Shown here piece by piece: positions 869 through 46,025 of a stretch of DNA of 64,000 nucleotides (its first letter is position 1; every line of letters begins with the position of its first letter). The position numbers were made by a program, and so were the translations under genes. This DNA is from Omnitrophica bacterium GWA2_41_15 (GTDB taxonomy: Bacteria > Omnitrophota > Gorgyraeia > Ghiorseimicrobiales > Ghiorseimicrobiaceae). A model generated the notes under the pieces. The model was not told where the DNA came from. It did not search any database and was given only the letters and a program-made list of their open reading frames with translations. The stretch spans positions 2,128 through 66,127 of the forward strand of contig CAKKQO010000023.1 in the NCBI GenBank assembly GCA_919902105.1. Direction: 5' to 3'.

Positions 869-873
869 ATAAA

Positions 874-2640: not shown

Positions 2641-5148
<2,508 letters not shown>

Positions 5149-5188
5149 TTCTATAAGGTTTTCTCTATTAAATAAAGGTTACATTTAC

Positions 5189-5360
5189 ATAATGAAAATT
5201 TTATGCGCCGCACGGAAATTTTTTGCCGACTGCTGCGATTTACAACTCGCAAATTTGCCGAAATTCCCTTACGGTCAGTTTCGGCATTTACTCATTGTAA
5301 TCTCTGGCAGTCTTTTGCCAAAAAATTTCTAATTGTGCTTGCTCATAAAATTTTCATTAT
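5189..5360. repeat. About 172 nt whole-length imperfect hairpin element (element E)
   Basis: Perfect 17-bp terminal inverted repeat, ATAATGAAAATTTTATG (5189-5205) with CATAAAATTTTCATTAT (5344-5360). Inner arms are also complementary (GAAATTTTTTGCCGACTGC / GCAGTCTTTTGCCAAAAAATTTC). Central hairpin TGCCGAAA..TTTCGGCA. Confidence 0.8.
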
Positions 5361-5388
5361 AATAAATTATCGCACCCTTAAACTTTGC

Positions 5389-5416
5389 TTGACTTTCTTG
5401 GGTAATGTGGTATAGT
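5389..5416 (+). promoter_or_regulatory. Candidate sigma70-type promoter for the OmpA-like gene
   Basis: TTGACT, 16-nt spacer, TGgTATAGT (extended -10), about 60 nt upstream of the AGGAGG-ATG at 5479. Confidence 0.45.
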
Positions 5417-5478
5417 TTTAGATAATTATAATTACCCGCCTAAAATATTCTAATAATATTTTTAATCAGGAGGTAGAG

Positions 5479-6156
5479 ATGTTGAGAGATGTAAAAAAAG
5501 GAATGTGGGTATTTTTTATTTTGGCATTAGCGGTTACGTTGAGCAGTTGCACTATAATTTTCCAGAAAGGAAGAAAGTCGGATGTCTCTCAAATAGAGAC
5601 TTTGAGCAAGCGGTTAAGTGAACTCGAGGATGTTAAAAAATTACTAGAGGAAAGGCTAAAGCAAGAAATTGCCGATAAACAGGTAAAGTTAGAAATGGCA
5701 GAGAAGGGTTTAGTGATTACCTTTCTTGCCGATATTCTCTTTGATTCAGGAAAGGCAGAAATCAGGCCGACAGCTTACGCGGCTTTAGATAAAATCGCTC
5801 GGGTGTTGAGTGAAAACGTCCCGGATATGAATGTAGGCATTGAAGGGCACACCGATAATGTTGCGATTAAACATTCAGGGTGGAAGTCTAACTGGGAGTT
5901 ATCGGCCCATCGCGCCTTAAGCGTATTGCATTATTTAGCAAACAAAAAAGGAGTTGCAGGAGAAAGAGTTTCGGCGATCGGCTATGGAGAGTTTCGTCCC
6001 GTCGCCTCCAATGATAGTAAAGAAGGGCGTCAGCTTAACCGCCGGGTAGAGATTGTTATCTTACCTAAGGTAACTAAGATAAAAAAGGCAGAAGCTAATA
6101 TGCCTCAAGAAGCACCGGCTGCTGAAGAAGTTGGGCAGGAAGAGAATTTGAAATAG
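5479..6156 (+). CDS. OmpA/MotB-domain peptidoglycan-binding lipoprotein with coiled-coil linker
   Basis: Signal plus lipobox (LTLSSC). C-terminal OmpA_C-like motifs (FDSGKAEI, GHTDN, NWELSAHRA, NRRVEIV). Strong RBS AGGAGG. Confidence 0.8.
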   Translation: MLRDVKKGMWVFFILALAVTLSSCTIIFQKGRKSDVSQIETLSKRLSELEDVKKLLEERLKQEIADKQVKLEMAEKGLVITFLADILFDSGKAEIRPTAYAALDKIARVLSENVPDMNVGIEGHTDNVAIKHSGWKSNWELSAHRALSVLHYLANKKGVAGERVSAIGYGEFRPVASNDSKEGRQLNRRVEIVILPKVTKIKKAEANMPQEAPAAEEVGQEENLK

Positions 6157-6195
6157 ATTATATCATTCATCAGTCTAATTCCGAGGGAGGAGCAT

Positions 6196-6597
6196 ATGAT
6201 TGAGGAGGCAGTTAAGAATCGTATAATTTTAATCGTGAGCACTCTGTGTTTGATATTTTTCTTCTGGGCTATTGGAGCGCACAGCGAAATAGGCAAATAT
6301 AAGAAGAATATGCAGGACGAAATCAGGAAACGTATAGAGATGGAGGAGCAGAACACAAATTTCTTGAAAGAAAAATCTAACTTTGTGGAAAGTATCAAAC
6401 AGTTAACCGCCCAATTAGAAGAAGAAAAAGCAGTAAATCAAGCTACCAAAAAGGCTTTAGTGGAGGAACAGCTAATGAACGACAGCCTTAAGCAGGAAGT
6501 AGAAAAAGAGGCCCGGCTTAAGCAAGTCATCGAAGAAGATTTGAAAGAGGCATTAATGAAGGATTCGCAGAAACAGAAAAAGCAAGGCTCTCGATAA
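6196..6597 (+). CDS. Membrane-anchored coiled-coil protein, unknown function
   Basis: One N-terminal TM helix followed by an E/K/Q-rich heptad-like sequence. RBS GGAGGAG upstream. Confidence 0.5.
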   Translation: MIEEAVKNRIILIVSTLCLIFFFWAIGAHSEIGKYKKNMQDEIRKRIEMEEQNTNFLKEKSNFVESIKQLTAQLEEEKAVNQATKKALVEEQLMNDSLKQEVEKEARLKQVIEEDLKEALMKDSQKQKKQGSR

Positions 6598-6635
6598 GAC
6601 AGGAAATTTTCCTTAAAGCGTTTAATGCAAGCTTT

Positions 6636-6663
6636 AAAACGGGGGATAAAAATCCCCCGTTTT
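6636..6663 (+). terminator. Intrinsic terminator, bidirectional in appearance
   Basis: AAAACGGGGG-ATAAAAA-TCCCCCGTTTT: GC stem flanked by an A-run and a T-run. Confidence 0.65.
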
Positions 6664-6669
6664 GTTAAC

Positions 6670-6789
6670 CCCGTTAGAGATAACACATCTCACTAAGCAA
6701 GCGGGGTTTGATAATTATGGAAGCATGAGTTTTATCGAGCGCAGGATCTTAAAGAGACGGTCGTCTAAAGACGACCTATCTCTAACGGG
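6670..6789. repeat. 120-nt element closed by a perfect 13-bp inverted repeat
   Basis: CCCGTTAGAGATA (6670-6682) pairs with TATCTCTAACGGG (6777-6789). Internal hairpin GGTCGTC-TAAA-GACGACC (6759-6776). The element ends 7 nt before the uppS ATG. Confidence 0.7.
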
Positions 6790-6796
6790 ATAAAAT

Positions 6797-7498
6797 ATGG
6801 TTCCTCAGCATATAGCAATTATAATGGATGGTAATGGCCGTTGGGCCGAGGCTCGCGGCCTTCCGCGCGCCTTCGGGCATAGAGAAGGCGTAAAGCGAGT
6901 AAAAGAAATAGTCAAGGCCGCCCAAGAATTAGGGATAAGGGTTCTGACTATATTTGCTTTTTCTACCGAGAATTGGGACAGGCCCAAAGAAGAAATCGAT
7001 ATGTTGATGAGATTTCTGGAAAATTACCTTAAAAGCAACGCCAAGGATTTAAAAAAGAAAAATATCAGGTTAAATGTAATGGGCAGGCGTGATCGTATCC
7101 CTGCGCGTTTAACCAAAGAGATTGAACACACAATTAAATTTACTAAAGATAATTCAGGATTTATCCTGAATTTGGCATTAGATTATGGCGGCCGTTTTGA
7201 GATAATCAATGCCGTAAAAACAATAACAAAAAAGGCAAGGGAAGATATATCTTTCGATATTGCCAAGATTACTGAAGAATATTTCTCTCAGCATCTTTAT
7301 ACGAATAATCTTCCTGACCCGGATCTTCTGATACGCACTTCGGGTGAGGAACGTATAAGCAATTTTATGCTTTGGCAGCTTTCTTATACGGAGTTATATT
7401 TTCCCGAAAAATTCTGGCCGGATTTTAAAAAGAGGGATTTAGAAGAAGCTATAGAATTATTTAATAAGCGCAAGCGTAGGTTCGGGAGAATAGAATGA
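6797..7498 (+). CDS. uppS: Undecaprenyl diphosphate synthase
   Basis: HIAIIMDGNGRWA, FAFSTENWDRP, RTSGEERISNFMLWQ motifs. Confidence 0.95.
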   Translation: MVPQHIAIIMDGNGRWAEARGLPRAFGHREGVKRVKEIVKAAQELGIRVLTIFAFSTENWDRPKEEIDMLMRFLENYLKSNAKDLKKKNIRLNVMGRRDRIPARLTKEIEHTIKFTKDNSGFILNLALDYGGRFEIINAVKTITKKAREDISFDIAKITEEYFSQHLYTNNLPDPDLLIRTSGEERISNFMLWQLSYTELYFPEKFWPDFKKRDLEEAIELFNKRKRRFGRIE

Positions 7499-8319
7499 CG
7501 GTTAAAAGGATAATCAGCGCATTATTTTTAATCACCTTAAGTGTCTCCGTAATTTTACTTGACTATCACTTTAAAATGCATTGGCCTTTTAGTTTTTTAA
7601 TTATCTTTTTAATCGGCGCGGGACTTTATGAATTTTTTACCCTCATAGAGCGTAAGGGCATTAAAATTTATAAATATTTCGGGATTGCAGTCGGGTTGCT
7701 TATCCCGCTTTCAATATACCATAAATTTGAGCTTACCAAGGGGTGGGAATTGTTATTTATCGTCCTGCTTTTATTGATTATTTTTTTACTGCAGTTTGCC
7801 CGCCGTGATAGCCGGGGGGCTGTGGAAGGGATTTCCACTTTGTTGTTCGGGATACTTTATATTTCATGGCTGTTTAGCTTTATTATCAAGCTCAGGTATT
7901 TACCTCAAGGGACAGGCCTGGTGGGCGCCCTTTTATTGATAACTAAATCCGGAGATATCGGCGCATATCTTATCGGCACAAGATTTGGCAGGCGCCCGCT
8001 TATTGCCTGGATTAGCCCGAAAAAGTCTATAGAGGGGACCGCAGGCGGATTTATCTTTTCCGTGCTTGCCGCCTTAGCCAGCAAGGTATTCCTTCCGTGG
8101 TTATCTTATGCGCATTGGGCTATGGTAGGGCTTTCTTTAGGGGTTTTAGGACAATTAGGGGACCTTTCAGAATCACTGATTAAACGCGATTGCCGAAGTA
8201 AGGATTCCGGCTTAATATTCCCGGGGATGGGCGGGGTTATGGATATAATTGACAGTTTATTATTTACGGCCCCGGCCTTTTATTTTTATATGAGTTTTTT
8301 AATAAACAAAACACTCTAA
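7495..8319 (+). CDS. cdsA: Phosphatidate cytidylyltransferase
   Basis: Polytopic membrane protein with the C-terminal CTP_transf_1 signature (SLIKRDCRSKDSG..PGMGGVMD..DS). Sits in the conserved uppS-cdsA-dxr-rseP order. Confidence 0.9.
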   Translation: MTVKRIISALFLITLSVSVILLDYHFKMHWPFSFLIIFLIGAGLYEFFTLIERKGIKIYKYFGIAVGLLIPLSIYHKFELTKGWELLFIVLLLLIIFLLQFARRDSRGAVEGISTLLFGILYISWLFSFIIKLRYLPQGTGLVGALLLITKSGDIGAYLIGTRFGRRPLIAWISPKKSIEGTAGGFIFSVLAALASKVFLPWLSYAHWAMVGLSLGVLGQLGDLSESLIKRDCRSKDSGLIFPGMGGVMDIIDSLLFTAPAFYFYMSFLINKTL

Positions 8320-9473
8320 TGCAGCCAAGCGTAAAACAGGTAATTATATTGGGTTCTACCGGTTCCATCGGAGAACATACTCTAGATGTGATTTCTCGCA
8401 ATAAAGAAAAATTTAGAGTATTGGGTTTATCCGCGCATTCTAATAGCGAATTGCTCTTAAAACAGATTGATAAATTTTCTCCTGAATATGCGGCGCTCGG
8501 CGATATAGATAAAGCAAAAGCAATAGAAAATAGGATTAAAGGCAGGACTAAAATTTTAAAGGGCGAAGACGCCATAGAAAATTTACTTGATAAAAAAAGC
8601 GATTTAGTAGTAGTGGCAATAAGCGGCGGCCGCGCTCTCTTACCCGTGTTAAAAGCCTTAGAGACGGCTAAAGCAATTGCTTTAGCAAATAAGGAAGCTT
8701 TGGTAATGGCCGGGCACTTGATAATGAAGAAGGCAGAAGAAAAAAAAGTTAAAATAATCCCTGTGGACAGCGAGCAGAGCGCGATATTCCAGTGCCTTAA
8801 AGATGAAAATACGCATGCAATAAAAAAAGTTTATTTAACTGCTTCCGGCGGGCCGTTAAAAAACATAAGCAGGAAAAATTTTTTTAAAGTTACTCCGGAT
8901 AAAGCCCTTAATCATCCACGCTGGAAGATGGGTAGAAAAATCTCCATTGATTCGGCAACATTGATGAATAAAGGCCTGGAATTAATCGAAGCAATGTGGT
9001 TATTCGCTCTTAAGTCAGAGGCAATAGAAATAATTATACACCCCGAGGCAATAATCCATTCTATGGTAGAATTTATCGACGGCGTAGTTTTAGCACAATT
9101 GGCAGTTGCCGATATGCGTATCCCTATTCAATACGCTCTAACGTATCCGGAGCGCATAAGTTCGGGTTTTAAAAGTTTAAATTTTTCCGCAATTAAAAAA
9201 TTGACTTTTGAAAAGCCCGATTTTAAAAAATTTCCCTGCTTGCGTTTAGCTAAAGAGGCCTCTCTTTCCGGCGGGAGTGCTCCCTGTGTATTAAATGCCG
9301 TCAATGAAGAGGCAGTGAATGCCTTTTTAGACAGGCGCATAAGTTTTATCGCTATCCCGAAAGTAATTGAAAAAGTTTTAAGCAGGCATAGAGTTGTAAA
9401 GTGTCCGGATTTAGAACAAATTTTAAAAACCGATGCCTGGGCAAGAAATGAGGTTAAATGTTTAATTTCTTAG
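8319..9473 (+). CDS. dxr: 1-deoxy-D-xylulose 5-phosphate reductoisomerase
   Basis: ILGSTGSIG NADPH motif, LANKEALV, NHPRWKMG, IHPEAIIHSMVEF. Confidence 0.95.
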   Translation: MQPSVKQVIILGSTGSIGEHTLDVISRNKEKFRVLGLSAHSNSELLLKQIDKFSPEYAALGDIDKAKAIENRIKGRTKILKGEDAIENLLDKKSDLVVVAISGGRALLPVLKALETAKAIALANKEALVMAGHLIMKKAEEKKVKIIPVDSEQSAIFQCLKDENTHAIKKVYLTASGGPLKNISRKNFFKVTPDKALNHPRWKMGRKISIDSATLMNKGLELIEAMWLFALKSEAIEIIIHPEAIIHSMVEFIDGVVLAQLAVADMRIPIQYALTYPERISSGFKSLNFSAIKKLTFEKPDFKKFPCLRLAKEASLSGGSAPCVLNAVNEEAVNAFLDRRISFIAIPKVIEKVLSRHRVVKCPDLEQILKTDAWARNEVKCLIS

Positions 9474-10534
9474 TTCCGATTATCATTTTAAGCGTTCTCA
9501 TTATCGTGCATGAATTTGGGCACTTTATTGTTGCCCGGCGCGTCGGCGTTAAAGTAGAGAAGTTTTCTTTGGGATTCGGCCCAAAATTATTCAGCATAAA
9601 AAGAGGCGATACTTTATACCAGCTCTGCGCTATTCCTTTAGGCGGATATATTAAGATGGCAGGCGATGAGTATGGCGAATACAAAGGCGCAAAAGATGAA
9701 TATCTGGCGCAAAAGCCTGCCAATAAAGCCAAGATTATTTTCGCCGGTGCCGGGCTAAATTACTTATTAGGCTTTGTCTTTTTTTCTTTTGCCTTACTCT
9801 TGGGTATCCCTGATTCTACTACAAGGGTGGGAGAGGTTGTATCGGGATATCCTGCTTTTGAGGCGGGAATATTGCCTAAAGACAAAATAATCGCCGTAGA
9901 TGGCAAGAAAGTAGAGTTTTGGATAGAAATGGTGGGGCTTATCCATGGGAAAAAAGGCGCAAAGGTCAATATAGCTTTATCAAGGGCGGATAAACTTATA
10001 GAATTAGAAATGCCTACCAAGTTAGAGGCCATTGAGACTACAGGAGGCAGGCATGAAATATCGCTTATCGGAATAAAACAAGGGCGTTTAAAATATGGGC
10101 TAAAAGATGCATTTGTTGTAGGCATAAAAGATTATTTAAAAACCACATTATTTTATTATAAGACGCTAGGATTAATGTTTAGCGGGAAAATATCTTTTAA
10201 ACGCTCTGTTGCCGGGCCTATCGGGATTTACTATATTACAACTGGGGCGGCTACGGCGGGTTTAGGCCCGTTGTTGTATGTATTGGCCATACTTAGTTTA
10301 AGTTTAAGCGTGATTAATTTGCTGCCCTTTCCGGTATTAGACGGAGGGCATCTTGCCTTTATTGCCTTAGAAAAAATCCGGGGTAAAGCATTGAACAGGA
10401 ATACTGAAGAGTTGATTACTCGGGTAGGGATGAGTCTGTTGATAACGCTTGCGCTTTTTACTATTTATAATGACATGGTGAATTTTTCTATTCTTGATAA
10501 CTTTCTAAACTGGATTAAATCTTTTAAGCGTTAA
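9458..10534 (+). CDS. rseP: RIP site-2 metalloprotease (M50)
   Basis: HEFGH zinc motif in TM1, an internal PDZ-like segment, and C-terminal NLLPFPVLDGGH. Confidence 0.9.
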   Translation: MFNFLVPIIILSVLIIVHEFGHFIVARRVGVKVEKFSLGFGPKLFSIKRGDTLYQLCAIPLGGYIKMAGDEYGEYKGAKDEYLAQKPANKAKIIFAGAGLNYLLGFVFFSFALLLGIPDSTTRVGEVVSGYPAFEAGILPKDKIIAVDGKKVEFWIEMVGLIHGKKGAKVNIALSRADKLIELEMPTKLEAIETTGGRHEISLIGIKQGRLKYGLKDAFVVGIKDYLKTTLFYYKTLGLMFSGKISFKRSVAGPIGIYYITTGAATAGLGPLLYVLAILSLSLSVINLLPFPVLDGGHLAFIALEKIRGKALNRNTEELITRVGMSLLITLALFTIYNDMVNFSILDNFLNWIKSFKR

Positions 10535-10541
10535 CCCTAAT

Positions 10542-10582
10542 AACACCTACGCGGTGTTACAGGTTAACACCGCGTAGGTGTT
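10542..10582. repeat. Perfect 18-bp stem hairpin between rseP and ispG
   Basis: AACACCTACGCGGTGTTA-CAGGT-TAACACCGCGTAGGTGTT. No T-run follows. Confidence 0.85.
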
Positions 10583-10601
10583 GCAGGTTGTGAAGAACGG
10601 T

Positions 10602-11717
10602 ATGAATATTGTTCGTCGTAAAACAAAAGAAATAAAAATAGGAAAAGTAAAAATAGGAGGCAATAACCCCATTGCTATACAGTCAATGGTAAAGGTTGAC
10701 ACGAAGGATATCGCCGCAGTTATCCGGCAGATAAAAAGTTTAGAAAAAGCGGGCTGTGAAATAGCGAGGGTTGCCGTTAAAGATAAAAATTCGGCCAAGG
10801 CAATAAGTAAGATTAGGCCTAAAATAAATATTCCTTTAGTTGCCGATATCCACTTTGATTATAACTTAGCGCTTTTGGCTGTAAAAAACGGGGTGGATAA
10901 GATAAGGTTAAATCCGGGAAATATTTTTAAGCCTAAAGAGGTGCGCGCGGTAACACTAGCGGCGAAAAGAGCTAAAATTCCCATCCGCGTGGGGGTAAAT
11001 TCTGGTTCGGTCAGAGGGGAATCCAGCGTGGACAACATGGTTAAAAATGCGCAGGATTACATAAAAATGCTGGAAGAATTTGATTTTCATAATATCATAG
11101 TTTCGCTGAAAGCATCAAATATTTTGGATACAGTTGATGCGTATCGTAAAATCTCTAAACTTTGTAATTATCCTTTACATTTAGGCGTGACTGCGACTGG
11201 TACCTCGTATTCGGGGGCAATAAAATCTAGCATTGCTTTAGGGGCGCTTTTATTAGAAGGCATAGGCGATACCATCAGGATATCGCTTACGGAAAAGCCG
11301 GAAGATGAGGTGAACACAGCAAAGATTATTTTAGGCGCCTTAGGGTTACGCCGTTTTGGGCCGGAGATTATCAGCTGTCCAACCTGCGGCAGGTGCGAAG
11401 TGGATTTGGTCAATATAGTTAAGAAACTAGAAAATTCGTTGGCCAGTTGGCCAGTTGGCCAGTTGGCCAGTATAACCGGCAAGCCGGCGGGGCACCCGCG
11501 AGAGCGGGTCGGGCAAGCCGGCAAACCACTAAAGGTGGCCGTAATGGGCTGTGTAGTCAACGGCCCGGGAGAAACCAAAGAAGCGGATATAGGCATTGCC
11601 TTTGGCAGAAAAGAAGGATTGTTATTTAGGCATGGTAAACCCATAAGAAAAGTTCCTGCAGATAGGTGCGTGGAAGTGTTATTAGAGGAAATGAATAAAG
11701 TTTACAATAAACTGTAA
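10602..11717 (+). CDS. ispG: 4-hydroxy-3-methylbut-2-enyl diphosphate synthase (carries a repeat-encoded insertion)
   Basis: [29 protein letters not shown] and GCVVNGPGE motifs. Start moved to ATG 10602 because the TTG at 10578 lies inside the upstream hairpin. Confidence 0.93.
   Translation: [371 protein letters not shown]
11439..11526 (+). repeat. Intragenic GC-rich repeat/palindrome block inside ispG
   Basis: TTGGCCAG x4 tandem (11439-11470) followed by CCGGCAAGCCGGCGGGGCACCCGC-GAGA-GCGGGTCGGGCAAGCCGGC. The ispG frame stays open through the block. Confidence 0.85.
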
Positions 11718-13467: not shown

Positions 13468-13476
13468 CTTAAATGA

Positions 13477-13537
13477 ACCCCGCCTTATAAGATACCGTAA
13501 AATTTTCTATCAATAATTTTACGGTATTCGGCGGGGT
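13477..13537. repeat. 61-nt compound hairpin between rimP and nusA
   Basis: Outer stem ACCCCGCC/GGCGGGGT. Inner perfect 13-bp stem ATACCGTAAAATT (13492-13504) / AATTTTACGGTAT (13515-13527). Confidence 0.8.
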
Positions 13538-13602
13538 CAATTCGCGCAAATAATTTACCTCAGTTTCACTTCTGTAAATTATGCGCTCATTGAGGGGGAA
13601 TA

Positions 13603-18749: not shown

Positions 18750-19817
18750 ATGCCAACAGGAAGAAAAAAAATACTCACAGATACTTCAGAAGTTAGCGCA
18801 CTCCCCTCAGATTTACTTTTAAAACAAGAGACCGATGAGGATATTGTTTTAAATCTTTCGCTTCGGCCTGCCAAATTATCTGAATTTGTCGGTCAGACCG
18901 GTACTGTAGAGAACTTAAAAATTGCAATTTGCGCCGCCAAAGAGCGCAAAGAGCCGCTGGAACATGTGTTTTTATCCGGGCCTCCGGGCTTGGGCAAAAC
19001 CGCGCTTTCCTATATTATCGCCCATGAGATGGGCACAAAGATTACCGCAACAAGCGGCCCTGCCATTGAGCGGGCAGGCGATTTAATCGGCATACTTACT
19101 AATTTAGAAAAAGGCGATATCCTTTTTATTGACGAGATTCACCGGATGTCTAAGGTAGCGGAGGAGTTTTTATATCCGGCAATGGAAAATTCGCAGATTG
19201 ATTTTATCGTAGATAAAGGCCCATATGCCCGCACCATAAAATTTAACTTAAAAAGGTTTACTCTTATTGGCGCTACCACCAGAAGCGGGCTTTTAAGTTC
19301 GGCGCTGCGTTCGCGTTTTGGCATATTTTACCATTTTGATTTTTATCCCCCTGAAGATTTAGCAAAAATTATCAAGCGCTCGGCGAAGCTTTTAGGCATA
19401 GATGTTAACGATGATGCCGCTTTAGAAATAGCACGGCGTTCGCGCGGCACCCCGCGTGTGGCTAACCGCCTGCTTCGGCGCGTGCGCGATTATGCGCAGG
19501 TAAAATCTAAAAGCAGCCTGATTACCCAGAAAATCGCCGATGAGTCGCTTTCCTGTTTAAGGATAGATAAAAACGGGCTTGATGAATGCGACCGCAAGGT
19601 CCTGCGCACGGTTATTGATGTTTATAGCGGCGGCCCCGTGGGTGTTGAGTCGCTTGCGGCAACACTTAACGAAGAGCAGGATACACTTATCGATACCGTA
19701 GAGCCGTATCTCTTAAAAGCCGGATACTTAAAGCGCACCTCGCGCGGACGCCTCGTTACAAAATTAGCCTACGAGCACCTCGGTGCCAAATACGATAAAC
19801 AGGAAGAGTTGTTCTAA
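18750..19817 (+). CDS. ruvB: Holliday junction branch-migration helicase RuvB
   Basis: LRP..L.EFVGQ, Walker [14 protein letters not shown], sensor [15 protein letters not shown]. Confidence 0.95.
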
Positions 19818-19992
19818 TTTTTTAACGGGTCCTGTCAAGGTTGTGCTTTCGCAAAAACGCTCGGTTTTCTCCAGCGAAGAAAACCTTCGCTCGGCAGTCG
19901 GCGTGCGCTCTGCCGATTTTCATCGGCAGCCATGTCCGCTTTGCGCCTCCTACGTTTTGCTTAAAGCACAAACCTTGCCACCCGCTAAAAAA
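19818..19992. repeat. About 175 nt whole-length imperfect hairpin element (element D)
   Basis: Begins on the base after the ruvB stop. Arms TTTTTTAACGGGT..CAAGGTTGTGCTTT..AAAACG and CGTTTTGC..AAAGCACAAACCTTG..ACCCGCTAAAAAA. Internal hairpins GGTTTTC..GAAAACC and CTGCCGAT-TTTC-ATCGGCAG. Confidence 0.8.
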
Positions 19993-20005
19993 TTGTTAAT
20001 GTATT

Positions 20006-20044
20006 TTGCTAAATCGTCAATTCGCTCAACCGACACAACAATAT
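20006..20044 (+). repeat. Solo 3'-arm-like fragment of the about 208 nt element family
   Basis: TTGCTAAATCGTCAATTCGCTCAACCGACACAACAATAT resembles the 3' arms TTGCTAAAATTGCAATGCGTTCAAGCGACACAATATAT (copy A) and GGCTAAAATTGCAATTCGCTCAAATGACACAGC (copy B). Confidence 0.6.
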
Positions 20045-21125: not shown

Positions 21126-22288
21126 AAAAATTTAATAATTATAAGTTACGAGTTATAAGTTTAATTATTTTTTTGTTTTTAACTTATCACTTATCACTTA
21201 TCACTTATAATTATTCCTATGCCCAGCCGCAGAAAAGCCGCAATGTGCGCGTGCTCATTCTTAAAGGGGCAGAAAAATTTGACCTCTACATCAGAGGAAA
21301 ATATGAAATACGGTCACCGGACGGGAAAAATGTTATTAAAGAGGGTAAAGGTATAAATGCGAAGGTTTATGCTGATAATAACGCGATAAATATTTCCGAT
21401 ATTCGTATAAATGAAAATAAAATTATAATCTCTCCAGAGTCAGGGATTTTTTATCTCAATAATCGCCCCTTACGCGGCGGGCTAATTGTAAAAAAAGAAA
21501 ATGACTTAACTTTATTAGTAATCAATTATTTAGATTTAGAAGATTATGTTAAAGGGGTTCTTTTCCATGAAGTTTCGCATCACTGGCCGATTGAGGCGAT
21601 TAAGGCGCAGGCAATAGCCACGCGCACGTATGTGCTTTATCAGGTAGAGGTGAGTAAAGATAAAGACTACGATGTAACCAGCGATATTTATTCGCAAGTA
21701 TATGGCGGCAAAGACGCGGAAAGATACCGTACCATTAAGGCGGCAGAGGAAACTGAAGGCGTGGTCTTAACTTGTAAAGCTAAAGTTTTTCCGGCTTATT
21801 TTCATGCTACCTGCGGCGGGAAAACCGAAGATGCAAGCGAATTATGGCAGACAGACCTGCCTGCCTTAAAAGGCGTTGATTGCGGTTTCTGTTTTAAGTC
21901 ACCGCATTTTAAATGGCAGAAGGTATTTAGCAAAGATGAGCTTATAAAAAGGTTAAATTCTTCAGGGTATCGCTTTACTTCTTTAGAGGGCATCCAAATA
22001 TTAGGCCGCGACAAATCAGGCAGAATCAGAAAACTAAAGTTAAAGTCAAAAGATGGTGACGTGTTTATTCCTGCGAAAGATTTCCGCCAGCTCGTAGGCA
22101 CAAGAGTTATCCGTTCTACTAACTTTGCTGTAAATAAATCCGCAGATAATATCTATTTTGAGGGCTTTGGCTGGGGCCATGGCGTGGGGATGTGCCAGTG
22201 GGGGGCATATTTTATGAGCATTAAAAAATATAAGTATCAGGATATCCTTAAGTTTTATTACCCCGGAGCAGAAATAGAGAAAATATGA
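21110..22288 (+). CDS. SpoIID/LytB-domain protein (peptidoglycan remodelling)
   Basis: Motifs LEDYVKGVL..E, AIKAQAIATRTY, CGG.TED, and C-terminal GHGVGMCQWGA. The N-terminal hydrophobic segment is encoded by repeat DNA, so the start is uncertain (TTG 21104 or ATG 21110). Confidence 0.85.
   Translation: MVPSIKKFNNYKLRVISLIIFLFLTYHLSLITYNYSYAQPQKSRNVRVLILKGAEKFDLYIRGKYEIRSPDGKNVIKEGKGINAKVYADNNAINISDIRINENKIIISPESGIFYLNNRPLRGGLIVKKENDLTLLVINYLDLEDYVKGVLFHEVSHHWPIEAIKAQAIATRTYVLYQVEVSKDKDYDVTSDIYSQVYGGKDAERYRTIKAAEETEGVVLTCKAKVFPAYFHATCGGKTEDASELWQTDLPALKGVDCGFCFKSPHFKWQKVFSKDELIKRLNSSGYRFTSLEGIQILGRDKSGRIRKLKLKSKDGDVFIPAKDFRQLVGTRVIRSTNFAVNKSADNIYFEGFGWGHGVGMCQWGAYFMSIKKYKYQDILKFYYPGAEIEKI
21134..21215. 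repeat. Inverted-repeat plus heptamer-tandem block at the 5' end of the SpoIID-like gene
   Basis: AATAATTATAAGT (21134-21146) pairs with ACTTATAATTATT (21203-21215). ACTTATC x3 tandem at 21182-21202. AAGTTAC GAGTTAT AAGTTTA heptamers. Confidence 0.75.
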
Positions 22289-22301
22289 AGTTTTACTAGA
22301 A

Positions 22302-22506
22302 ATATATTATGTCGTTTTCACTTAGATGCAATTTTTTAACGCAAAGGTCTTTCACAATTTCGGTGGCTGCGGAACTCGTTCTTCGGCACCTTCGTGCCAA
22401 GAATGAACTCAAACATCCTCGCCACCCCGATATAGACCATCGGGGTTCCCGCAATTCCTCAAGCTGCTTTGCTAAAATTGCAATGCGTTCAAGCGACACA
22501 ATATAT
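22302..22506 (+). repeat. About 205 nt whole-length hairpin element, family copy A
   Basis: Terminal arms ATATATTATGTCG / CGACACAATATAT. Shared core CTGCGGAACTCGTTCTTCGGCACCTTCGTGCCAAGAATGAACTCAAACAT. Internal hairpin CCCCGAT..ATCGGGG. Confidence 0.9.
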
Positions 22507-22532
22507 TTCTTCTAATAAATTAATTAAAAAAT

Positions 22533-23558
22533 ATGAAACTCTCCGATTTTGATTACAATTTGCCTAAAGAATTAATCGCTCAGTATCCGTCAAATGTGCG
22601 TGATGCCAGCCGCCTTTTGGTAGTAGATAGAAAAAATGAAAGTATTGCGCATAAAAAATTTTCCCGGATACTGGAATATTTTAATCCGGGGGACCTGCTG
22701 GTTTTAAATAACAGTAAAGTTCTGCCGGCACGTGTATTCGGCAGAAGAGAAAAAACCGGAGCAAAAATAGAATTTTTGTTAATTAAAAAAGAAGGCGGCA
22801 CTTTTTCGGTAATGGTAAAACCGGCAAAAAAATTTCAAATCGGAGAAAACATTGTTTTTGGCGAAAATAACGGCGGGCTTTATGCAAAAATAGTAGATAA
22901 AAATAAAATTGCTTTTGAGAGAGGTAATCCCGATGAAATTTATAAGCTCGGAACAATGCCGCTTCCCCCATATATTAAAAGGAATTCCGAAGGATTAGAT
23001 TTTGAAAGGTATCAGACAGTTTTTGCTAAAATTCCCGGTTCAATTGCCGCCCCAACCGCGGGGTTACATTTTAGTAAAGAGCTATTAGGCGAAATTAAGG
23101 ATAGAGCCGTAGAGGTTAACTATGTTACTTTACATGTGGGTGTGGGGACATTTAAGCCGGTAAAGACAGAAGATGTCGCTAAACATAAAATGGAGCCGGA
23201 ATTTTTTGAAATAGGCCCAGAGTTGATAGGAAGTATAAAAAAAGCAAAAAAACAAAAAGGGCGTATTTTTTCCGTAGGGACTACCAGCTGCCGTGTTATC
23301 GAAACAATAACAGAATTACCTATTGTCCATGACTTATCACCTGTAACCCATTCAGGATTTACTAATCTATTTATCTATCCCGGATATAGCTTTAAAGCGG
23401 TAGATTGCCTTTTGACTAATTTTCATTTACCTAAGACCACGCTTTTTATGCTGGTTTGCGCTTTCGCCGGCCGCGAGTTAATTATGCGGGCTTATCAGGA
23501 GGCGATAGAAGAAAAATACCGTTTCTACAGTTACGGCGATGCGATGTTGATAGTGTGA
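22533..23558 (+). CDS. queA: S-adenosylmethionine:tRNA ribosyltransferase-isomerase
   Basis: MKLSDFDY.LP..LIAQ.P, PARL-like, TAGLHF, VGTTS.R..E motifs; 341 aa. Confidence 0.95.
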   Translation: MKLSDFDYNLPKELIAQYPSNVRDASRLLVVDRKNESIAHKKFSRILEYFNPGDLLVLNNSKVLPARVFGRREKTGAKIEFLLIKKEGGTFSVMVKPAKKFQIGENIVFGENNGGLYAKIVDKNKIAFERGNPDEIYKLGTMPLPPYIKRNSEGLDFERYQTVFAKIPGSIAAPTAGLHFSKELLGEIKDRAVEVNYVTLHVGVGTFKPVKTEDVAKHKMEPEFFEIGPELIGSIKKAKKQKGRIFSVGTTSCRVIETITELPIVHDLSPVTHSGFTNLFIYPGYSFKAVDCLLTNFHLPKTTLFMLVCAFAGRELIMRAYQEAIEEKYRFYSYGDAMLIV

Positions 23559-23574
23559 CGATATTGTTGAGAAA

Positions 23575-23630
23575 CGTAAAACTGATGGAATTTCTTATTG
23601 TGTGCTTTCAGAAATTCCATCAGTTTTGCG
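23575..23630 (+). repeat. 21-bp stem hairpin after queA
   Basis: CGTAAAACTGATGGAATTTCT - 14-nt loop - AGAAATTCCATCAGTTTTGCG. The single non-Watson-Crick position is a T:G pair on the + strand. Confidence 0.85.
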
Positions 23631-23681
23631 TACCTCTATAATCTTTAACAGAGCCGAACAGGCTGATTTTGTGAGGGGGTA

Positions 23682-27276: not shown

Positions 27277-28971
27277 ATGCTAAGCGATATTGAGATAGCA
27301 CAGGCGGCAAAACTAAAGCCAGTCCAGAAAATAGCCGCATCTATCGGTATCAAAGAAACCGATTTGGAACTATACGGAAAGTATAAAGCTAAAGTTCTGC
27401 CCACTGCTTTAAAAAAGATAAAGACTAAAAGGCAGGCGAAATATGTTTTAGTTACAGCAATTACGCCTACGCCCTTAGGTGAGGGTAAAACCGTAACCAC
27501 TATTGGCCTATCCATGGCGCTAAATAGGATAGGCAAAAAAGCTATTGCTTGTATCCGCCAGCCGTCGCTTGGCCCAGTCTTTGGGATTAAAGGAGGGGCG
27601 GCCGGAGGCGGGTATTCGCAGGTAGTGCCGATGGAAGATTTTAACCTGCATTTAACCGGCGATGTGCATGCCGTAGGACTTGCGCATAATTTATGCGCCG
27701 CTTTTTTGGAGAACGCTTTATTCAGGAAAAAACTTAATATTGACCATAAAGCCGTTTTTTGGCGAAGAGTTCTAGATGTAAGCGACAGGTCATTACGTAA
27801 AATCAGCGTTGGTTTAGATGATAAGGTAGATGGGGTTTATCCCAGAGAGACCGGTTTTGATATTACAGTGGCGTCTGAAATAATGGCAATTTTAGCGCTT
27901 TCAAGTGATCTCCAGGATTTACGCCGTCGTCTCGGCAGGATTGTCTTAGCCAAGACTTTTGACGGTAAATATGTTACCCCTGAAGATTTAAAGGTTGCCG
28001 GCTCAATGGCAGCGCTTTTAAAAGACGCGGTGCACCCAAATTTAATGCAGACTTTGGATAATACTCCTGTCTTTGTGCATGCCGGGCCGTTTGCCAATAT
28101 CGCGCATGGAAATAGCTCTATTATCGCCGATAAAATCGCGGTAAGTTTAGCGGATTTTGTAGTAACAGAGGCAGGCTTTGGCGCAGACTGCGGGGCAGAG
28201 AAATTTTTTGATATTAAATGCCGCGTCAGCGGCCTTAAGCCGGATGCGGCAGTTTTAGTCTGCACCGTGCGCGCCTTAAAAATGCACTCTGGTAAATTTA
28301 CGGTTAAGCCGGGCAAGCCGCTTGATGAGGGATTACTCCGTGAGAATCTTCCTGCTATTAGAGAGGGTGCTGCAAACTTAGAAAAACAGATTGAGAATAT
28401 TAAAATTTTTGGTATCCCGGTTGTAGTGACGATTAACAGATTCTCCGCCGATACAGATAAAGAAATCGCCTTAATTAAAGAGATTGCCAAAAATGCCGGA
28501 GCCGAAGATGCGATAGTTAGTGATTTATTCGCCAAGGGCTCAAAAGGCGGAGAGGAATTAGCCGAGAAGATAGTTGAAGTCTCCAAGAAAAAAGCGAATT
28601 TTAAATTTCTTTATGAACTGGATAGCACGATTGAAGAAAAGATGTGGGTAATTGCTACCAAGATTTACGGGGCAAAGGATATTGATATTTCGCCGAAAGC
28701 TTTAGAACAGATAGAAGAATTTAATAAATTAGGTTTTAATGGGCTTCCTCTGTGTATGGCAAAGACGCATTTGTCGCTTTCGCATGACCCGGAATTAAAA
28801 GGACGGCCGAAAGACTTTGTCGTGCCAATCCGCGAAATAAAAGTCTCTGCGGGTGCCGGATTTTTATACGCGCTCTTAGGCGATATGCGCACTATGCCGG
28901 GGTTGCCTTCTGTTCCGGCAGGGACAAAGATAGATATTGATAAAGATGGAAAGATAGTGGGATTGTCATAA
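27277..28971 (+). CDS. fhs: Formate-tetrahydrofolate ligase
   Basis: SDIEIAQ, TPTPLGEGKTT, GIKGGAAGGGY, and PLCMAKT.LS.S near the C-terminus; 564 aa. Confidence 0.97.
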   Translation: MLSDIEIAQAAKLKPVQKIAASIGIKETDLELYGKYKAKVLPTALKKIKTKRQAKYVLVTAITPTPLGEGKTVTTIGLSMALNRIGKKAIACIRQPSLGPVFGIKGGAAGGGYSQVVPMEDFNLHLTGDVHAVGLAHNLCAAFLENALFRKKLNIDHKAVFWRRVLDVSDRSLRKISVGLDDKVDGVYPRETGFDITVASEIMAILALSSDLQDLRRRLGRIVLAKTFDGKYVTPEDLKVAGSMAALLKDAVHPNLMQTLDNTPVFVHAGPFANIAHGNSSIIADKIAVSLADFVVTEAGFGADCGAEKFFDIKCRVSGLKPDAAVLVCTVRALKMHSGKFTVKPGKPLDEGLLRENLPAIREGAANLEKQIENIKIFGIPVVVTINRFSADTDKEIALIKEIAKNAGAEDAIVSDLFAKGSKGGEELAEKIVEVSKKKANFKFLYELDSTIEEKMWVIATKIYGAKDIDISPKALEQIEEFNKLGFNGLPLCMAKTHLSLSHDPELKGRPKDFVVPIREIKVSAGAGFLYALLGDMRTMPGLPSVPAGTKIDIDKDGKIVGLS

Positions 28972-29180
28972 GATAGCTGCTGTATCATTTTCGCTCAGGT
29001 GCAATTTTTATACGCCAAGTTCTCGGCATTTTAAGCGCCTGCGTAACTCGTTCTTCGGCACTTTCGTGCCAGGAATGAACTCAAACATACTCGGCGTCCC
29101 GCTCTCTGAGCGGGATGCCTTAAAATGCCTGTGCGTGCTTGGCTAAAATTGCAATTCGCTCAAATGACACAGCAGCTATC
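28972..29180 (+). repeat. 209 nt whole-length hairpin element, family copy B
   Basis: Perfect terminal arms GATAGCTGCTGT / ACAGCAGCTATC. Sub-terminal GGCATTTTAAG / CTTAAAATGCC. Shared core CTGCGTAACTCGTTCTTCGGCACTTTCGTGCCAGGAATGAACTCAAACAT. Hairpin CCCGCTC-TCTG-AGCGGG. Confidence 0.9.
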
Positions 29181-29188
29181 TAAACAAA

Positions 29189-31701: not shown

Positions 31702-32004
31702 ATGTTATCACGAAATAAAATTATAGAAATTTTAAAAAAAGAATTTCCGCGCTTAAAAGCTGAATTTAGCGTAAAAAAGATAGGTATTTTTGGCTCCTAT
31801 GCGACGGGTGCGGCGGGGAAAGCCAGCGATGTGGATATTTTTATAGATTTTACAAAACCCATAGGCCTTAAGTTTATGGATTTAGCCGAGCATTTAGAAA
31901 AAATATTGGGGAAAAAGGTAGATATCTTGACTCCTGCCGGCATAAAGGGCATAAGAATAAAACAAATCTCTCAAAGCATTAAGAAAAGTTTAATCTATGT
32001 CTAA
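31702..32004 (+). CDS. mntA: MNT-type nucleotidyltransferase antitoxin
   Basis: GIFGSYATG...SDVDIFIDF (GS-x-G / DxD minimal nucleotidyltransferase motif). 100 aa. Overlaps the next gene by 8 nt. Confidence 0.85.
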   Translation: MLSRNKIIEILKKEFPRLKAEFSVKKIGIFGSYATGAAGKASDVDIFIDFTKPIGLKFMDLAEHLEKILGKKVDILTPAGIKGIRIKQISQSIKKSLIYV

Positions 32005-32341
32005 AAGAGCGGACAAGGATTTACTTAGCGATATCAAAGAATCTATCCTGCGGATAAATAGATATAGCGATAAGGTAACTTATGCGGAATTTATGCGGGA
32101 TACCAAAATCCAGGATGCGGTAGTGCGTAACATTGAAATTATCGGCGAGGCGGTAAAGAATTTATCTGAAGCAGAAAGAAGAAAGTATCCAAAAGTCCCA
32201 TGGAAAGAGTTAGCCAAAATGAGAGATAGGCTTATTCACCATTATTTCGGGGTTAATTACGAAATTGTTTGGAGTATAATCAGAGAAGAATTACCGAATA
32301 TTGCGGCAGGGCTTAAGATGAGTAGCGGGGGATTAAAATGA
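31997..32341 (+). CDS. hepT: HEPN/DUF86 RNase toxin
   Basis: R-x4-H motif (RDRLIHHYF). 114 aa. Classic MNT-HEPN pair order. Confidence 0.85.
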   Translation: MSKRADKDLLSDIKESILRINRYSDKVTYAEFMRDTKIQDAVVRNIEIIGEAVKNLSEAERRKYPKVPWKELAKMRDRLIHHYFGVNYEIVWSIIREELPNIAAGLKMSSGGLK

Positions 32342-45779: not shown

Positions 45780-45789
45780 TACTATAAAG

Positions 45790-45997
45790 CAGGTTATTAT
45801 TCATTTTGAACGATTTGCAATTTTCGTCAGGAGTCGTAGAGATTTTAAGGTTCCCCGCCAACGGCGGGGCGCCGAGGACTGTCTGAATTCATTCCTGGCA
45901 CGGAACGTGCCGAAGAATGAGTTCCGCAGGTGCCTTAAAATATCGAGAAGCTGACGTTAAAAAATTGCATCAGAGTGAAAAATGACATAATAACATG
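45790..45997 (-). repeat. 208 nt whole-length hairpin element, family copy C (inverted relative to A and B)
   Basis: The reverse complement aligns with copies A and B: core CTGCGGAACTCATTCTTCGGCACGTTCCGTGCCAGGAATGAATTCAGACA, hairpin CCCCGCC-GTT-GGCGGGG, arms CAGGTTATTATTCATTTT.. / ..GAAAAATGACATAATAACATG. Confidence 0.9.
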
Positions 45998-46025
45998 CTG
46001 TATGCTATGATGATTAATTAGTTTT

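What the first reader, a model, noticed from the sequence alone, without database searches (positions are those of the whole stretch)
22302..22506. Family copy A fills the spoIID-like|queA spacer and generates mirror-image spurious ORFs
Copy A has the same core as copy B.

Its 13-bp terminal arms (ATATATTATGTCG / CGACACAATATAT) contain one A:C mismatch on the + strand. That position would be a G:U wobble if the - strand were transcribed.

The element is open in both directions, and the ORF track calls 22309-22515 (+) and 22296-22499 (-). This is what a long palindrome produces, and automated annotation could easily call these as hypothetical proteins.

The element sits inside the queuosine gene neighbourhood between co-directional genes.
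Basis: seen in the sequence. Interest (0 to 1): 0.7.

Follow-up and report, generated by a model that had tools for sequence, protein, structure and literature searches.

The report
Small palindromic mobile insert between genes
The finding is real but fairly ordinary: a 238-base, non-coding, hairpin-forming repeat that inserted between two once-overlapping genes in an uncultivated groundwater bacterium (Omnitrophota), and its two "genes" are accidents of the palindrome.

Summary
Copy A (insert 22290-22527) is a long imperfect palindrome with the stated 13-bp arms (17 bp in full) and one A:C mismatch.

Relatives with 63-71% identical QueA have spoIID and queA abutting or overlapping (ATGA). Copy A is therefore an insertion. 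It is flanked by a 10-bp direct repeat, AAAATATGAA, that duplicates the stop/start junction.

The family occurs at five gene junctions in four related Omnitrophota genomes, in both orientations. Its terminal arms differ between subfamilies yet stay complementary, and its inner hairpins are swapped.

The two ORFs are open only in A, have no homologues, and no gene caller called them.

There is no Rfam match and no terminator, and the one promoter-like site is no better than chance.

Copies A and B are 95-98% identical between genomes whose four-fold sites are only about 50-60% identical. A closer relative lacks A. This points to recent lateral spread.

Best reading: a new MITE-like or REPIN-like palindromic repeat family, probably carried passively in operon transcripts. 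Interest is low to moderate.

The parts
22290..22527 (+). Copy A: the whole inserted segment (238 nt), a long imperfect palindrome
   Evidence: Bounded by the direct repeats found. It is 97.9% identical to the copy at the same site in L011. nhmmer scores 225 bits. Fold z is about -7 as RNA and about -6 as DNA on both strands.
22280..22289 (+). Left direct repeat AAAATATGAA; contains the spoIID stop TGA (22286-22288)
   Evidence: One search finds an exact 10-mer shared with 22528-22537 (chance of a 10-mer or longer is about 0.8%). Relatives L005 and L018 have one ..ATGA.. stop/start overlap at this point.
22528..22537 (+). Right direct repeat AAAATATGAA; contains the queA start ATG (22533-22535)
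22298..22314 (+). 5' terminal arm AGAAATATATTATGTCG
   Evidence: It pairs with 22494-22510, with one A:C mismatch (22309:22499).
22494..22510 (+). 3' terminal arm CGACACAATATATTTCT
22315..22326 (+). 5' box TTTTCACTTAGA (family consensus TTTTCGCTCAGG)
   Evidence: It faces the 3' box across two tandem pyrimidine-pyrimidine mismatches around a covarying 2-bp core (columns 34-35/208-209).
22483..22493 (+). 3' box ATGCGTTCAAG (family consensus ATTCGCTCAAA); the same motif in direct, not inverted, orientation
   Evidence: (repeat family D2).
22327..22335 (+). Inner stem arm TGCAATTTT, pairing with AAAATTGCA at 22474-22482
   Evidence: pair I5, 100% complementary. Conserved in the family.
22377..22408 (+). 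Central hairpin 1 (CGTTCTTCGGCAC..GTGCCAAGAATGAAC), a swappable module
   Evidence: An unrelated hairpin replaces it in B' (L007) and in G (L022).
22409..22416 (+). Conserved unpaired linker TCAAACAT
   Evidence: Identical in 7 of the 8 aligned copies; only F differs, reading TCAGACAGT.
22424..22446 (+). Hairpin 2 (ACCCCGAT..ATCGGGGT); its sequence varies between copies
   Evidence: pair I11.
22309..22515 (+). Spurious ORF, 68 aa
22296..22499 (-). Spurious ORF, 67 aa
28968..29183 (+). Copy B, between FTHFS and the FTCD_C-domain gene
   Evidence: 213 bits. Its counterpart in L007/L004 is 94.8% identical outside the swapped hairpin.
45787..46000 (-). Copy F, inverted, between trpG and trpD
   Evidence: (170 bits). 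The site is empty in L023 and is filled in the opposite orientation in L022.
19815..20041 (+). Degenerate relative C in the ruvB|queH spacer: a different long hairpin (19815-19997) followed by the family's 3' box and arm (20002-20037)
   Evidence: (family D2). In L011 the same spacer holds a full family copy, D. In L005 it holds a relative that aligns end to end at 26 bits.

Best explanation
Copy A is one member of a young, narrowly distributed family of non-autonomous palindromic insertion elements. The family resembles MITEs, REPINs and ERIC sequences and occurs in one clade of groundwater Omnitrophota. The unit is about 215-240 bp. From the outside in, it has long inverted arms, a pair of conserved boxes, a conserved AT-rich stem, and a Y-shaped centre with two hairpins whose tips can be exchanged.

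Shown: the element inserts as DNA at gene junctions inside operons. At the spoIID|queA junction it split an ancestral ATGA stop/start overlap and duplicated about 10 bp, so the left repeat keeps the spoIID stop and the right repeat keeps the queA start. It occurs in either orientation. It encodes nothing.

Inferred: it spreads between related genomes with its immediate flanks, probably by homologous recombination. It also spreads within genomes, using an enzyme supplied in trans that was not seen here. Complementarity of the arms is kept because the mobile or replicating form is a folded hairpin or cruciform, or because of strand-templated repair, rather than because one RNA strand is under selection.

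Inferred: in the cell it is most likely read through as part of the operon mRNA. There the -70 to -80 kcal/mol hairpin uncouples the two cistrons and may act as a processing or stability signal. That would be a side effect, not the reason the element exists.
For: Multi-copy and dispersed. There are three full copies in about 73 kb of the source contig (A, B, F), plus copies D and A' (L011), E (L005), B' (L007) and G (L022), all with nhmmer E-values of 1e-25 or smaller.

Insertion polymorphism. spoIID and queA overlap or lie within a base of each other in L005, L007, L016, L017 and L018 and abut exactly in L009/L010, though the L009/L010 junction is not ancestral in form (see evidence against). 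trpG and trpD abut in L023. FTHFS and FTCD_C overlap in L017.

Direct repeats that look like target-site duplications. A has the 10-mer AAAATATGAA and G has the 9-mer ATAAATATG, and each spans a stop/start junction.

Arms travel with the element. E, at the MTHFR locus of L005, carries the same arms as the ruvB-locus elements of L005 and L011.

Both orientations occur, even at one locus (F versus G).

No strand asymmetry in wobble pairs: 24 vs 21 and 15 vs 17.

Complementarity is strongly maintained. 91.7% of cells are paired, and 26 pairs changed on both sides against 12.7 +/- 2.2 in shuffles and 3-11 in slid controls. REPINs, which are DNA-level elements, show the same behaviour (PMC3116915).

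No ORF is conserved, there is no protein homologue, and no gene was called.

No Rfam family matches. No terminator-like site lies in the A spacer, and the one promoter-like site there (TTGCAA-18-TATATT, 22478-22507) is no better than chance.

Recent lateral spread. A is 97.9% identical between the window and L011, while four-fold sites of the flanking genes are 48-59% identical. The high-identity tract runs about 60 nt into both flanks. The closer relative L009 (four-fold identity 82-84%) lacks A. B is 94.8% identical against 46-58% at four-fold sites. F and G, from a closer genome pair, are far more diverged.

A second, unrelated long-hairpin family behaves the same way. Bacterial MITEs are described as 100-200 bp elements with long stem-loop transcripts and often accidental ORFs (PMC2229807).
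Against: No transposase, RAYT or other candidate mobilising enzyme lies in the window or in any fetched locus, and the rest of the genome could not be searched.

Direct repeats were found at only two or three of the six loci. They do not sit immediately next to the palindrome ends: at A there are 8 nt and 17 nt of extra sequence.

The terminal arms differ almost completely between subfamilies, which is unlike classical MITEs, where one transposase reads one terminal sequence.

Some features look selected rather than merely palindromic. These are the unpaired linker TCAAACAT, the two boxes in direct orientation with conserved pyrimidine-pyrimidine mismatches, and the fact that replaced hairpins are always replaced by hairpins.

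The element-minus orientation folds 2-13 kcal/mol more stably in six of seven copies.

B versus B' shows no raised identity in the flanks, so recombination through flanking homology is not demonstrated for B.

The L009/L010 'empty' site is not ancestral in form: spoIID there ends ..ITSLSSNP*. It could be an excision footprint.

Only eight sequences from five loci were available.
Confidence: 0.62

Rival explanations
1. A selected cis-acting RNA module. The hairpin would be kept inside polycistronic mRNAs as a processing, stability or insulation signal between cistrons (for example a substrate for a double-strand-specific RNase or a 3'-exonuclease block). Its mobility would be only the way it reached these sites. 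This could be true in addition to the best explanation.
For: At least eight true spacers in the window are filled by exceptionally stable hairpins. All copies sit exactly at gene junctions inside operons. A and B are far better conserved than neutral sites. Hairpins are replaced by hairpins. Pairing is maintained at 91.7%. No terminator is predicted, so read-through is plausible. ERIC and Correia elements are reported to modulate stability of flanking mRNAs (PMC2229807).
Against: Most relatives manage without any spacer at the same junctions. Orientation is not fixed. There is no wobble asymmetry on the mRNA-sense strand (15 vs 15 when recounted by sense). F and G diverge quickly. The high conservation of A is tied to a tract that includes flanking sequence and conflicts with the species relationships, which fits transfer better than constraint. 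No expression data were available.
Confidence: 0.2
2. A family of trans-acting structured non-coding RNA genes, paralogues of a resident RNA encoded downstream of ruvB, transcribed from their own promoter, most likely from the element-minus strand.
For: The ruvB|queH spacer carries a long hairpin in every genome examined, and in L011 that hairpin is a family member. The element-minus strand folds more stably. The boxes would form tandem G.A pairs on that strand. Some minus-strand hairpin loops read GAAA. A promoter-like site, TTGACG-17-AACAAT, lies on the minus strand at 20020-19992 next to hairpin C.
Against: No Rfam family, 6S RNA included, matches even at E <= 10. The promoter-like -10 element is absent in A, B and D (read from the sequence). 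The promoter scan is no richer than shuffles. There is no terminator. A, B, D and E would all be antisense to essential operons, while F would be sense. The insertion polymorphism and the lateral pattern do not suit a housekeeping RNA. There is no wobble asymmetry.
Confidence: 0.07
3. A folded-DNA recombination site: a hairpin recognised on single-stranded DNA by a tyrosine recombinase or HUH enzyme (like integron attC sites, IS200/IS605 ends or REP/RAYT). Structure and a few extrahelical or mismatched bases would matter, not the arm sequence.
For: Arms covary between subfamilies while the pairing is kept. Mismatched boxes are conserved in direct orientation. Nested or replaced hairpins occur at one hot-spot locus. 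The same site holds the element in both orientations. REPINs show compensatory changes and insert into one another (PMC3116915).
Against: No recombinase, integrase, RAYT or TnpA gene was seen. There is no consistent GTAG/CGTC tag and no RYYYAAC/GTTRRRY core (read from the sequence). The flanking genes are housekeeping genes, not cassettes. A 9-10-bp duplication is not expected for IS200/IS605-type or attC-type events.
Confidence: 0.08
4. One or both ORFs of copy A encode a real small protein.
For: Both ORFs are open for 67-68 codons in A and in L011. The 36-nt 3' motif shows changes that fall on third codon positions when A, B and C are compared (read).
Against: The same frames carry 2-6 stops in B, B', D, E and F. 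Most of the few A versus A' differences change the amino acid. There is no Pfam hit. The only matches in 1.84 billion representative proteins are spurious, to repetitive proteins. No gene caller predicted them.
Confidence: 0.01

Closest known systems
ERIC/IRU and YPAL elements of enterobacteria (127-168-bp imperfect palindromes in transcribed intergenic regions)
   Same: Size class. Each is a long imperfect palindrome giving a single long stem-loop. They sit between genes of the same operon in either orientation, and orthologous sites are filled in some relatives and empty in others. Variants carry internal insertions, and accidental contiguous ORFs occur (PMC2229807).
   Different: No sequence similarity: nothing matches in 5,426 E. 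coli genomes. The host phylum is different. Here the outer arms differ between subfamilies, the centre is Y-shaped with exchangeable hairpins, and the putative duplication is 9-10 bp rather than TA.
REPINs (REP doublets forming hairpins) mobilised by RAYT transposases
   Same: A hairpin-forming, non-coding mobile unit found only outside genes. Compensatory changes across the hairpin are common. Elements insert into or next to one another. The mobile form is thought to be folded single-stranded DNA (PMC3116915).
   Different: REPINs are built from two short, highly conserved REP sequences with a variable spacer. Here the centre is conserved and the ends vary. There is no GTAG/CGTC tag. No RAYT gene was seen, though the genome was not fully searchable. 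Copy number appears low.
Correia/NEMIS elements of Neisseria
   Same: About 100-155-bp inverted-repeat elements co-transcribed with neighbouring genes. Their stem-loops are reported RNase III targets, and longer and shorter variants differ by an internal block (PMC2229807).
   Different: Correia elements have constant 24-26-bp terminal repeats, a TA duplication and an IHF site. None of these is seen here.
Integron attC sites
   Same: Imperfect palindromes whose sequence varies while the folded structure and unpaired bases are conserved, located between co-directional genes.
   Different: Orientation is not uniform. The flanking genes are housekeeping genes. There are no core sites and no integrase nearby. 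The resemblance is one of principle only.

Membership tests
Bacterial MITE (non-autonomous miniature inverted-repeat element) | Small (under about 300 bp), non-coding, several dispersed copies | tested here: met
   Units are 215-240 bp. There are eight sequences at five loci in four genomes, and no ORF is conserved.
Bacterial MITE (non-autonomous miniature inverted-repeat element) | Terminal inverted repeats shared by the copies | tested here: inconclusive
   Every copy has 17-29-bp inverted arms. Only the innermost ~5 bp (TGTCR/YGACA) is shared between A, B, F and G. The outer arms are subfamily-specific.
Bacterial MITE (non-autonomous miniature inverted-repeat element) | Target-site duplication | tested here: inconclusive
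   A has a 10-bp repeat, G a 9-bp repeat and E an 8-bp repeat. B, B', F and D have none. The repeats are not directly adjacent to the palindrome ends.
Bacterial MITE (non-autonomous miniature inverted-repeat element) | Filled versus empty orthologous sites | tested here: met
   The spoIID|queA, trpG|trpD and FTHFS|FTCD_C junctions are uninterrupted in relatives.
Bacterial MITE (non-autonomous miniature inverted-repeat element) | A full-length IS with matching ends encoding the transposase | not testable with these tools
   None in about 73 kb of the source contig or in any locus. The one genome-contig scan found a single copy.
REPIN / REP-RAYT system | Two inverted copies of a short, conserved, tagged (GTAG or CGTC) REP sequence | tested here: not met
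   Read from alignments A3 and A6. The conserved part is central, the ends vary, and there is no consistent tag.
REPIN / REP-RAYT system | A RAYT gene in the genome, flanked by the repeats | not testable with these tools
   No Y1_Tnp-type gene appears in the precomputed Pfam lists of the loci, and no transposase family hits window ORFs 5-10534 (the 10578-11717 ORF was not scanned). The whole genome was not available.
ERIC / REP / other E. coli intergenic repeats | Sequence homology to the family consensus | tested here: not met
   blastn of the insert against 5,426 complete E. coli genomes gave no match.
6S RNA or any other Rfam family | A match to the covariance model | tested here: not met
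   No hit at gathering score in the window. Across A only chance-level hits appear (E >= 0.3, far below the gathering scores). Across C there is none at E <= 10.
Intrinsic terminator | GC-rich stem followed directly by a T run | tested here: not met
   No terminator-like site lies in 22289-22532 on either strand. The base of the stem is AT-rich.
Integron attC site | Uniform orientation downstream of cassette ORFs, RYYYAAC/GTTRRRY cores, and intI nearby | tested here: not met
   Both orientations occur. The neighbours are housekeeping genes and no integrase is present. No cores were found on reading the sequence.
Protein-coding gene | An ORF conserved among homologous copies and with homologues elsewhere | tested here: not met

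The most novel reading that the evidence does not exclude
The family may be mobilised or maintained through its folded form, as single-stranded DNA or RNA, by machinery that reads shape plus the two mismatched boxes rather than the terminal sequence. That would explain why the arms covary freely between subfamilies, why hairpin tips are exchanged as modules, and why the interior can flip in place. It would be a hairpin-dependent mobile element of a kind not yet described, in a phylum with no cultured model. It might also have been co-opted as a spacer between cistrons in extremely compact, single-strand-oriented operons.
Probability: 0.15. Interest if true: 0.6.

Novelty: new member of a known kind. 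Interest (0 to 1): 0.3.

Why it matters
Practically, it tells annotators of Omnitrophota genomes assembled from metagenomes that 200-250-nt spacers inside operons may be palindromic inserts rather than genes or riboswitches, and that 60-70-codon ORFs inside them should not be called.

Biologically, it documents that even small, tightly packed genomes of uncultivated groundwater bacteria carry at least two families of hairpin-forming mobile inserts. These inserts land precisely on stop/start junctions, can split translationally coupled gene pairs, and appear to move between related lineages.

The covarying arms and modular hairpins make the family a modest but useful case for asking whether complementarity in bacterial palindromic repeats is kept at the DNA level or the RNA level.

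Tried and rejected
6S RNA or another known RNA. The long closing stem and the folate-gene neighbours of B and E suggested 6S RNA, but there is no Rfam hit at any threshold and the centre is Y-shaped, not a bubble.

Coding on the minus strand (GTG TCN NTT GAR CGN ATT...). Differences in the 3' motif that look like third-codon-position changes prompted this, but the frames are broken in the other copies.

An outward sigma-70 promoter. TTGCAA-N18-TATATT at 22478-22507 is 9/12, but the -10 element is missing in B, E and others, and the scan is no richer than shuffles.

A sigma-54 site in B (TGGCTAAAATTGCA). The spacing is wrong (read).

IS608-like insertion 3' of TTAC. TTAC precedes A and is present in L009, but not at the other copies.

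Arms as pre-existing local palindromes into which a core inserted. The empty sites have no such palindrome, and E shares its arms with the ruvB-locus elements.

Collection scans. Genome contigs gave one hit, the counterpart of B. Two metagenome contigs patterns gave none. Two viral contigs patterns gave none. Plasmids, phages and E. coli genomes gave none.

'ORF trick' to find more copies through called proteins. Only spurious repetitive hits came back.

Contig breaks inside F (L014, L015) as evidence of repeat copy number. Rejected, because assemblers also break at perfect palindromes; L003 breaks at non-repeated hairpins.

The small GC-rich hairpin of B' as an independent mobile REP. No other copy exists in 42 kb of that genome.

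Full report
**1. The observation**

The sequence at 22302-22506 is as described. ATATATTATGTCG (22302-22314) pairs with CGACACAATATAT (22494-22506), with one A:C mismatch at 22309:22499. Pairing continues to 22298/22510, giving 17 bp. The repeat finder reports 25-nt arms at 84% complementarity.

The whole spacer folds as one long irregular hairpin with a Y-shaped centre:
- as RNA, -71.9 kcal/mol on the plus strand (z = -7.0) and -82.0 on the minus strand (z = -7.4);
- as DNA, z is about -6 on both strands.

The two ORFs (22309-22515 +, 22296-22499 -) exist. Copy B (28968-29183) shares the core: 84% over 75 nt, and nhmmer scores 225 and 213 bits. The neighbours are a SpoIID-domain gene and queA, within ruvB-queH-DUF2905-spoIID-queA-CxxCxxCC-tgt-trmD.

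**2. Source and family**

The window is part of an 85.5-kb contig from Hainich groundwater (ENA ERZ1292641). Identical proteins are labelled Candidatus Omnitrophota in NCBI.

I folded every gap in a crude ORF map and then ran an nhmmer search. This turned up a third full copy, F, at 45787-46000 on the minus strand, between trpG and trpD.

I fetched the orthologous regions of relatives through QueA and TrpD homologues. They held these further members:
- A' at the same spacer in L011;
- D in the ruvB|queH spacer of L011;
- E upstream of the MTHFR gene in L005;
- B' at the FTHFS|FTCD_C spacer of L007/L004;
- G at the trpG|trpD spacer of L022.

Nothing was found in three more distant relatives (L016-L018), in a further 9 kb of the source contig, in JGI metagenomes, in viral contigs, or in plasmids, phages and E. 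coli. The single scan of species-representative genomes found only B'. The family is therefore real, but young and confined to a small clade.

**3. It is an insertion**

- In L005 and L018 the spoIID stop and the queA start overlap as ATGA. In L007 and L016 the genes overlap by 14 nt. In L017 they are one base apart.
- The window has the ancestral ...GAGAAAATATGAA on the left and AAAATATGAAACTC... on the right. This is an exact 10-bp direct repeat (22280-22289 and 22528-22537) around a 238-nt insert. The left copy supplies the spoIID stop and the right copy the queA start. The chance of a 10-mer or longer in such flanks is about 0.8%.
- G is flanked in the same way by a 9-mer that spans the trpG stop and the trpD start. 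The site is TAA|ATG in L023.
- FTHFS and FTCD_C overlap in L017.
- B, F and D show no repeat, so a target-site duplication is suggested but not established.

**4. It is not a gene**

- The two frames that are open in A carry 2-6 stops in B, B', D, E and F.
- Neither ORF hits Pfam.
- The minus ORF finds only spurious repetitive proteins among 1.84 billion representative proteins. The plus ORF was not searched this way.
- No gene was called in any of these spacers in ENA, Logan or NCBI gene calls.

Accidental ORFs are a known property of palindromic bacterial repeats (PMC2229807).

**5. Structure is maintained, but not on one strand**

On the seven-sequence alignment, 91.7% of cells pair. Twenty-six of 64 pairs changed on both sides, against 12.7 +/- 2.2 in shuffles and 3-11 in slid controls.

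Much of this comes from the outer arms, which are almost entirely different between subfamilies yet complementary within each copy:
- A: AGAAATATATTATGTCG
- B: AGATAGCTGCTGTATCA
- D and E: AATGAATCYGGTA..TTTT
- F: GCATGTTATTATGTCA

The arms are not local sequence. The empty sites contain no such palindrome. E, at the MTHFR locus, carries the arms of the ruvB-locus elements.

Between B and B', two adjacent pairs changed together (GC to TA on both arms). The central hairpin was replaced by an unrelated one. G has yet another central hairpin and a different second hairpin.

- G:U on element-plus versus A:C on element-plus (G:U on element-minus) is 24 vs 21 on the union of both consensus structures;
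- it is 15 vs 17 for helix-internal positions of the individual folds;
- recounting by mRNA sense gives 15 vs 15.

The A:C in the arms of A and B is balanced by two conserved G:U pairs in the central hairpin. REPINs, which are DNA-level mobile hairpins, also show frequent compensatory changes (PMC3116915). Covariation alone therefore does not argue for an RNA gene.

**6. Orientation and turnover**

A, B, D, E and G lie in one orientation relative to the flanking genes, and F in the other. F and G occupy the same trpG|trpD junction in two related genomes in opposite orientations. Their arms can be aligned directly while the interior is reversed. That means either a flip in place between the inverted arms or two insertions.

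The ruvB|queH spacer is a hot spot:
- in L011 it holds D;
- in the window and L005 it holds a different long hairpin inside a similar frame;
- in L007 it holds a member of a second, unrelated hairpin family.

That second family also occurs at 5189-5360 in the window and at three other junctions in L005 and L007.

**7. Conservation pattern**

| Comparison | Element identity | Four-fold-site identity of flanking genes |
|---|---|---|
| Window vs L011 | A insert 97.9% | 0.48-0.59 |
| Window vs L009/L010 | A absent | 0.82-0.84 |
| Window vs L007 | B 94.8% outside the swapped hairpin | 0.46-0.58 |
| Window vs L022 | F vs G barely alignable globally | 0.69 |

For A, the high-identity tract extends about 60 nt into both flanks, where identity is 90-93%. 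For B, no rise in flank identity is seen.

Uniform purifying selection would not give this pattern. Recent lateral exchange of particular copies, together with fast turnover of others, does. One caveat: the L009/L010 junction is not ancestral in form and could be an excision footprint.

**8. What argues for something more than junk**

- The unpaired linker TCAAACAT is conserved.
- Both arms carry a TTCGCTCA-like box in direct orientation. The folded stem therefore has two tandem pyrimidine-pyrimidine mismatches around a covarying 2-bp core. On the other strand these would be tandem G.A pairs.
- The element-minus orientation folds 2-13 kcal/mol better in six of seven copies.

I could not explain these features. 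They keep alive two readings: that a protein recognises the folded form, or that the hairpin has been put to use in the mRNA.

No terminator-like site lies in the A spacer. The only promoter-like site there (TTGCAA-18-TATATT, 22478-22507) is no better than chance. Read-through from spoIID into queA is thus the default expectation, but no expression data were available.

**9. Verdict**

Copy A is a member of a new, clade-restricted family of palindromic, non-coding insertion elements of the MITE, ERIC or REPIN kind. The 'spurious ORF' reading is supported. The hint of a transcribed minus strand is not.

It is a new member of a known kind of element, with some unusual details: subfamily-specific covarying arms, modular hairpins, and insertion exactly on stop/start junctions. 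Interest is about 0.3.

Noticed in passing
window 45787-46000 (minus strand): A third full copy of the family (F), inverted, fills the trpG|trpD spacer.
   Followed up: yes
window 5189-5360; L005 4237-4410; L007 4238-4435, 7314-7431, 20432-20516: A second, unrelated family of ~170-nt long-hairpin inserts (arms ATAATGAAAATTTTATGCGC/GCTCATAAAATTTTCATTAT), also at gene junctions. The infB|trpS junction it fills in L005 and L007 is only 5 nt in the window.
   Followed up: partly
window 19815-19997, and L005 7290-7470: A ~180-nt long hairpin directly after the ruvB stop (z = -7.2) is conserved with covarying stems in L005 and has no Rfam match at E <= 10. The same spacer holds different hairpin elements in L011 and L007, so it is either an unknown RNA locus or an insertion hot spot.
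   Followed up: partly
window 22315-22326 with 22483-22493 (same columns in all copies): Both arms carry a TTCGCTCA-like box in direct orientation. This gives conserved tandem pyrimidine-pyrimidine mismatches around a covarying 2-bp core, which would be tandem G.A on the opposite strand. It is unexplained and could be a protein-recognition feature.
   Followed up: partly
window 22372-22416; L007 18030-18075; L022 ~150-180: The central hairpin is a swappable module that always sits between ..AAYTC and TCAAACAT. In A-type copies it is bracketed by a GAACTC direct repeat, as if the hairpin were itself a nested insertion.
   Followed up: partly
window 23563-23642: A near-perfect 33-bp hairpin sits in the queA|CxxCxxCC spacer. 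Unlike A, it is conserved at the orthologous site (L009 97.5%, L007 83%).
   Followed up: partly
window 6598-6796 and 13468-13602: Two more spacers with extremely stable folds (z = -10.6 and -7.1). The rimP|nusA spacer contains CAATTCGCGCAAATAATTTACC, which resembles the family's 3' box plus the D/E arm.
   Followed up: no
L005 18083-18211: Where the window has copy B, L005 has a different 129-nt palindrome (AAATGACGAATGACTAAATCCGAATGACGAAT...ATTCGACATTCGTCATTAGGAATTCGGATTT). The same junction has therefore been colonised by different hairpin elements.
   Followed up: no
whole window: Almost all of the ~59 genes are on the + strand and GC skew is positive throughout. Many neighbouring genes overlap or abut, so the genome is very compact and strongly oriented to one strand.
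   Followed up: no
window ~31702-32341: A nucleotidyltransferase/HepT-like pair (a toxin-antitoxin type module) lies just upstream of the MTHFR gene. The L005 and L007 loci show no such pair at that position.
   Followed up: no
L009 1520-1551 / L010: In the closest relative, spoIID ends with an aberrant ..ITSLSSNP* tail directly before the queA ATG. This is unlike the ..EIEKI*/..KIDKI* ends of all other relatives and may be a footprint of an excised element.
   Followed up: partly
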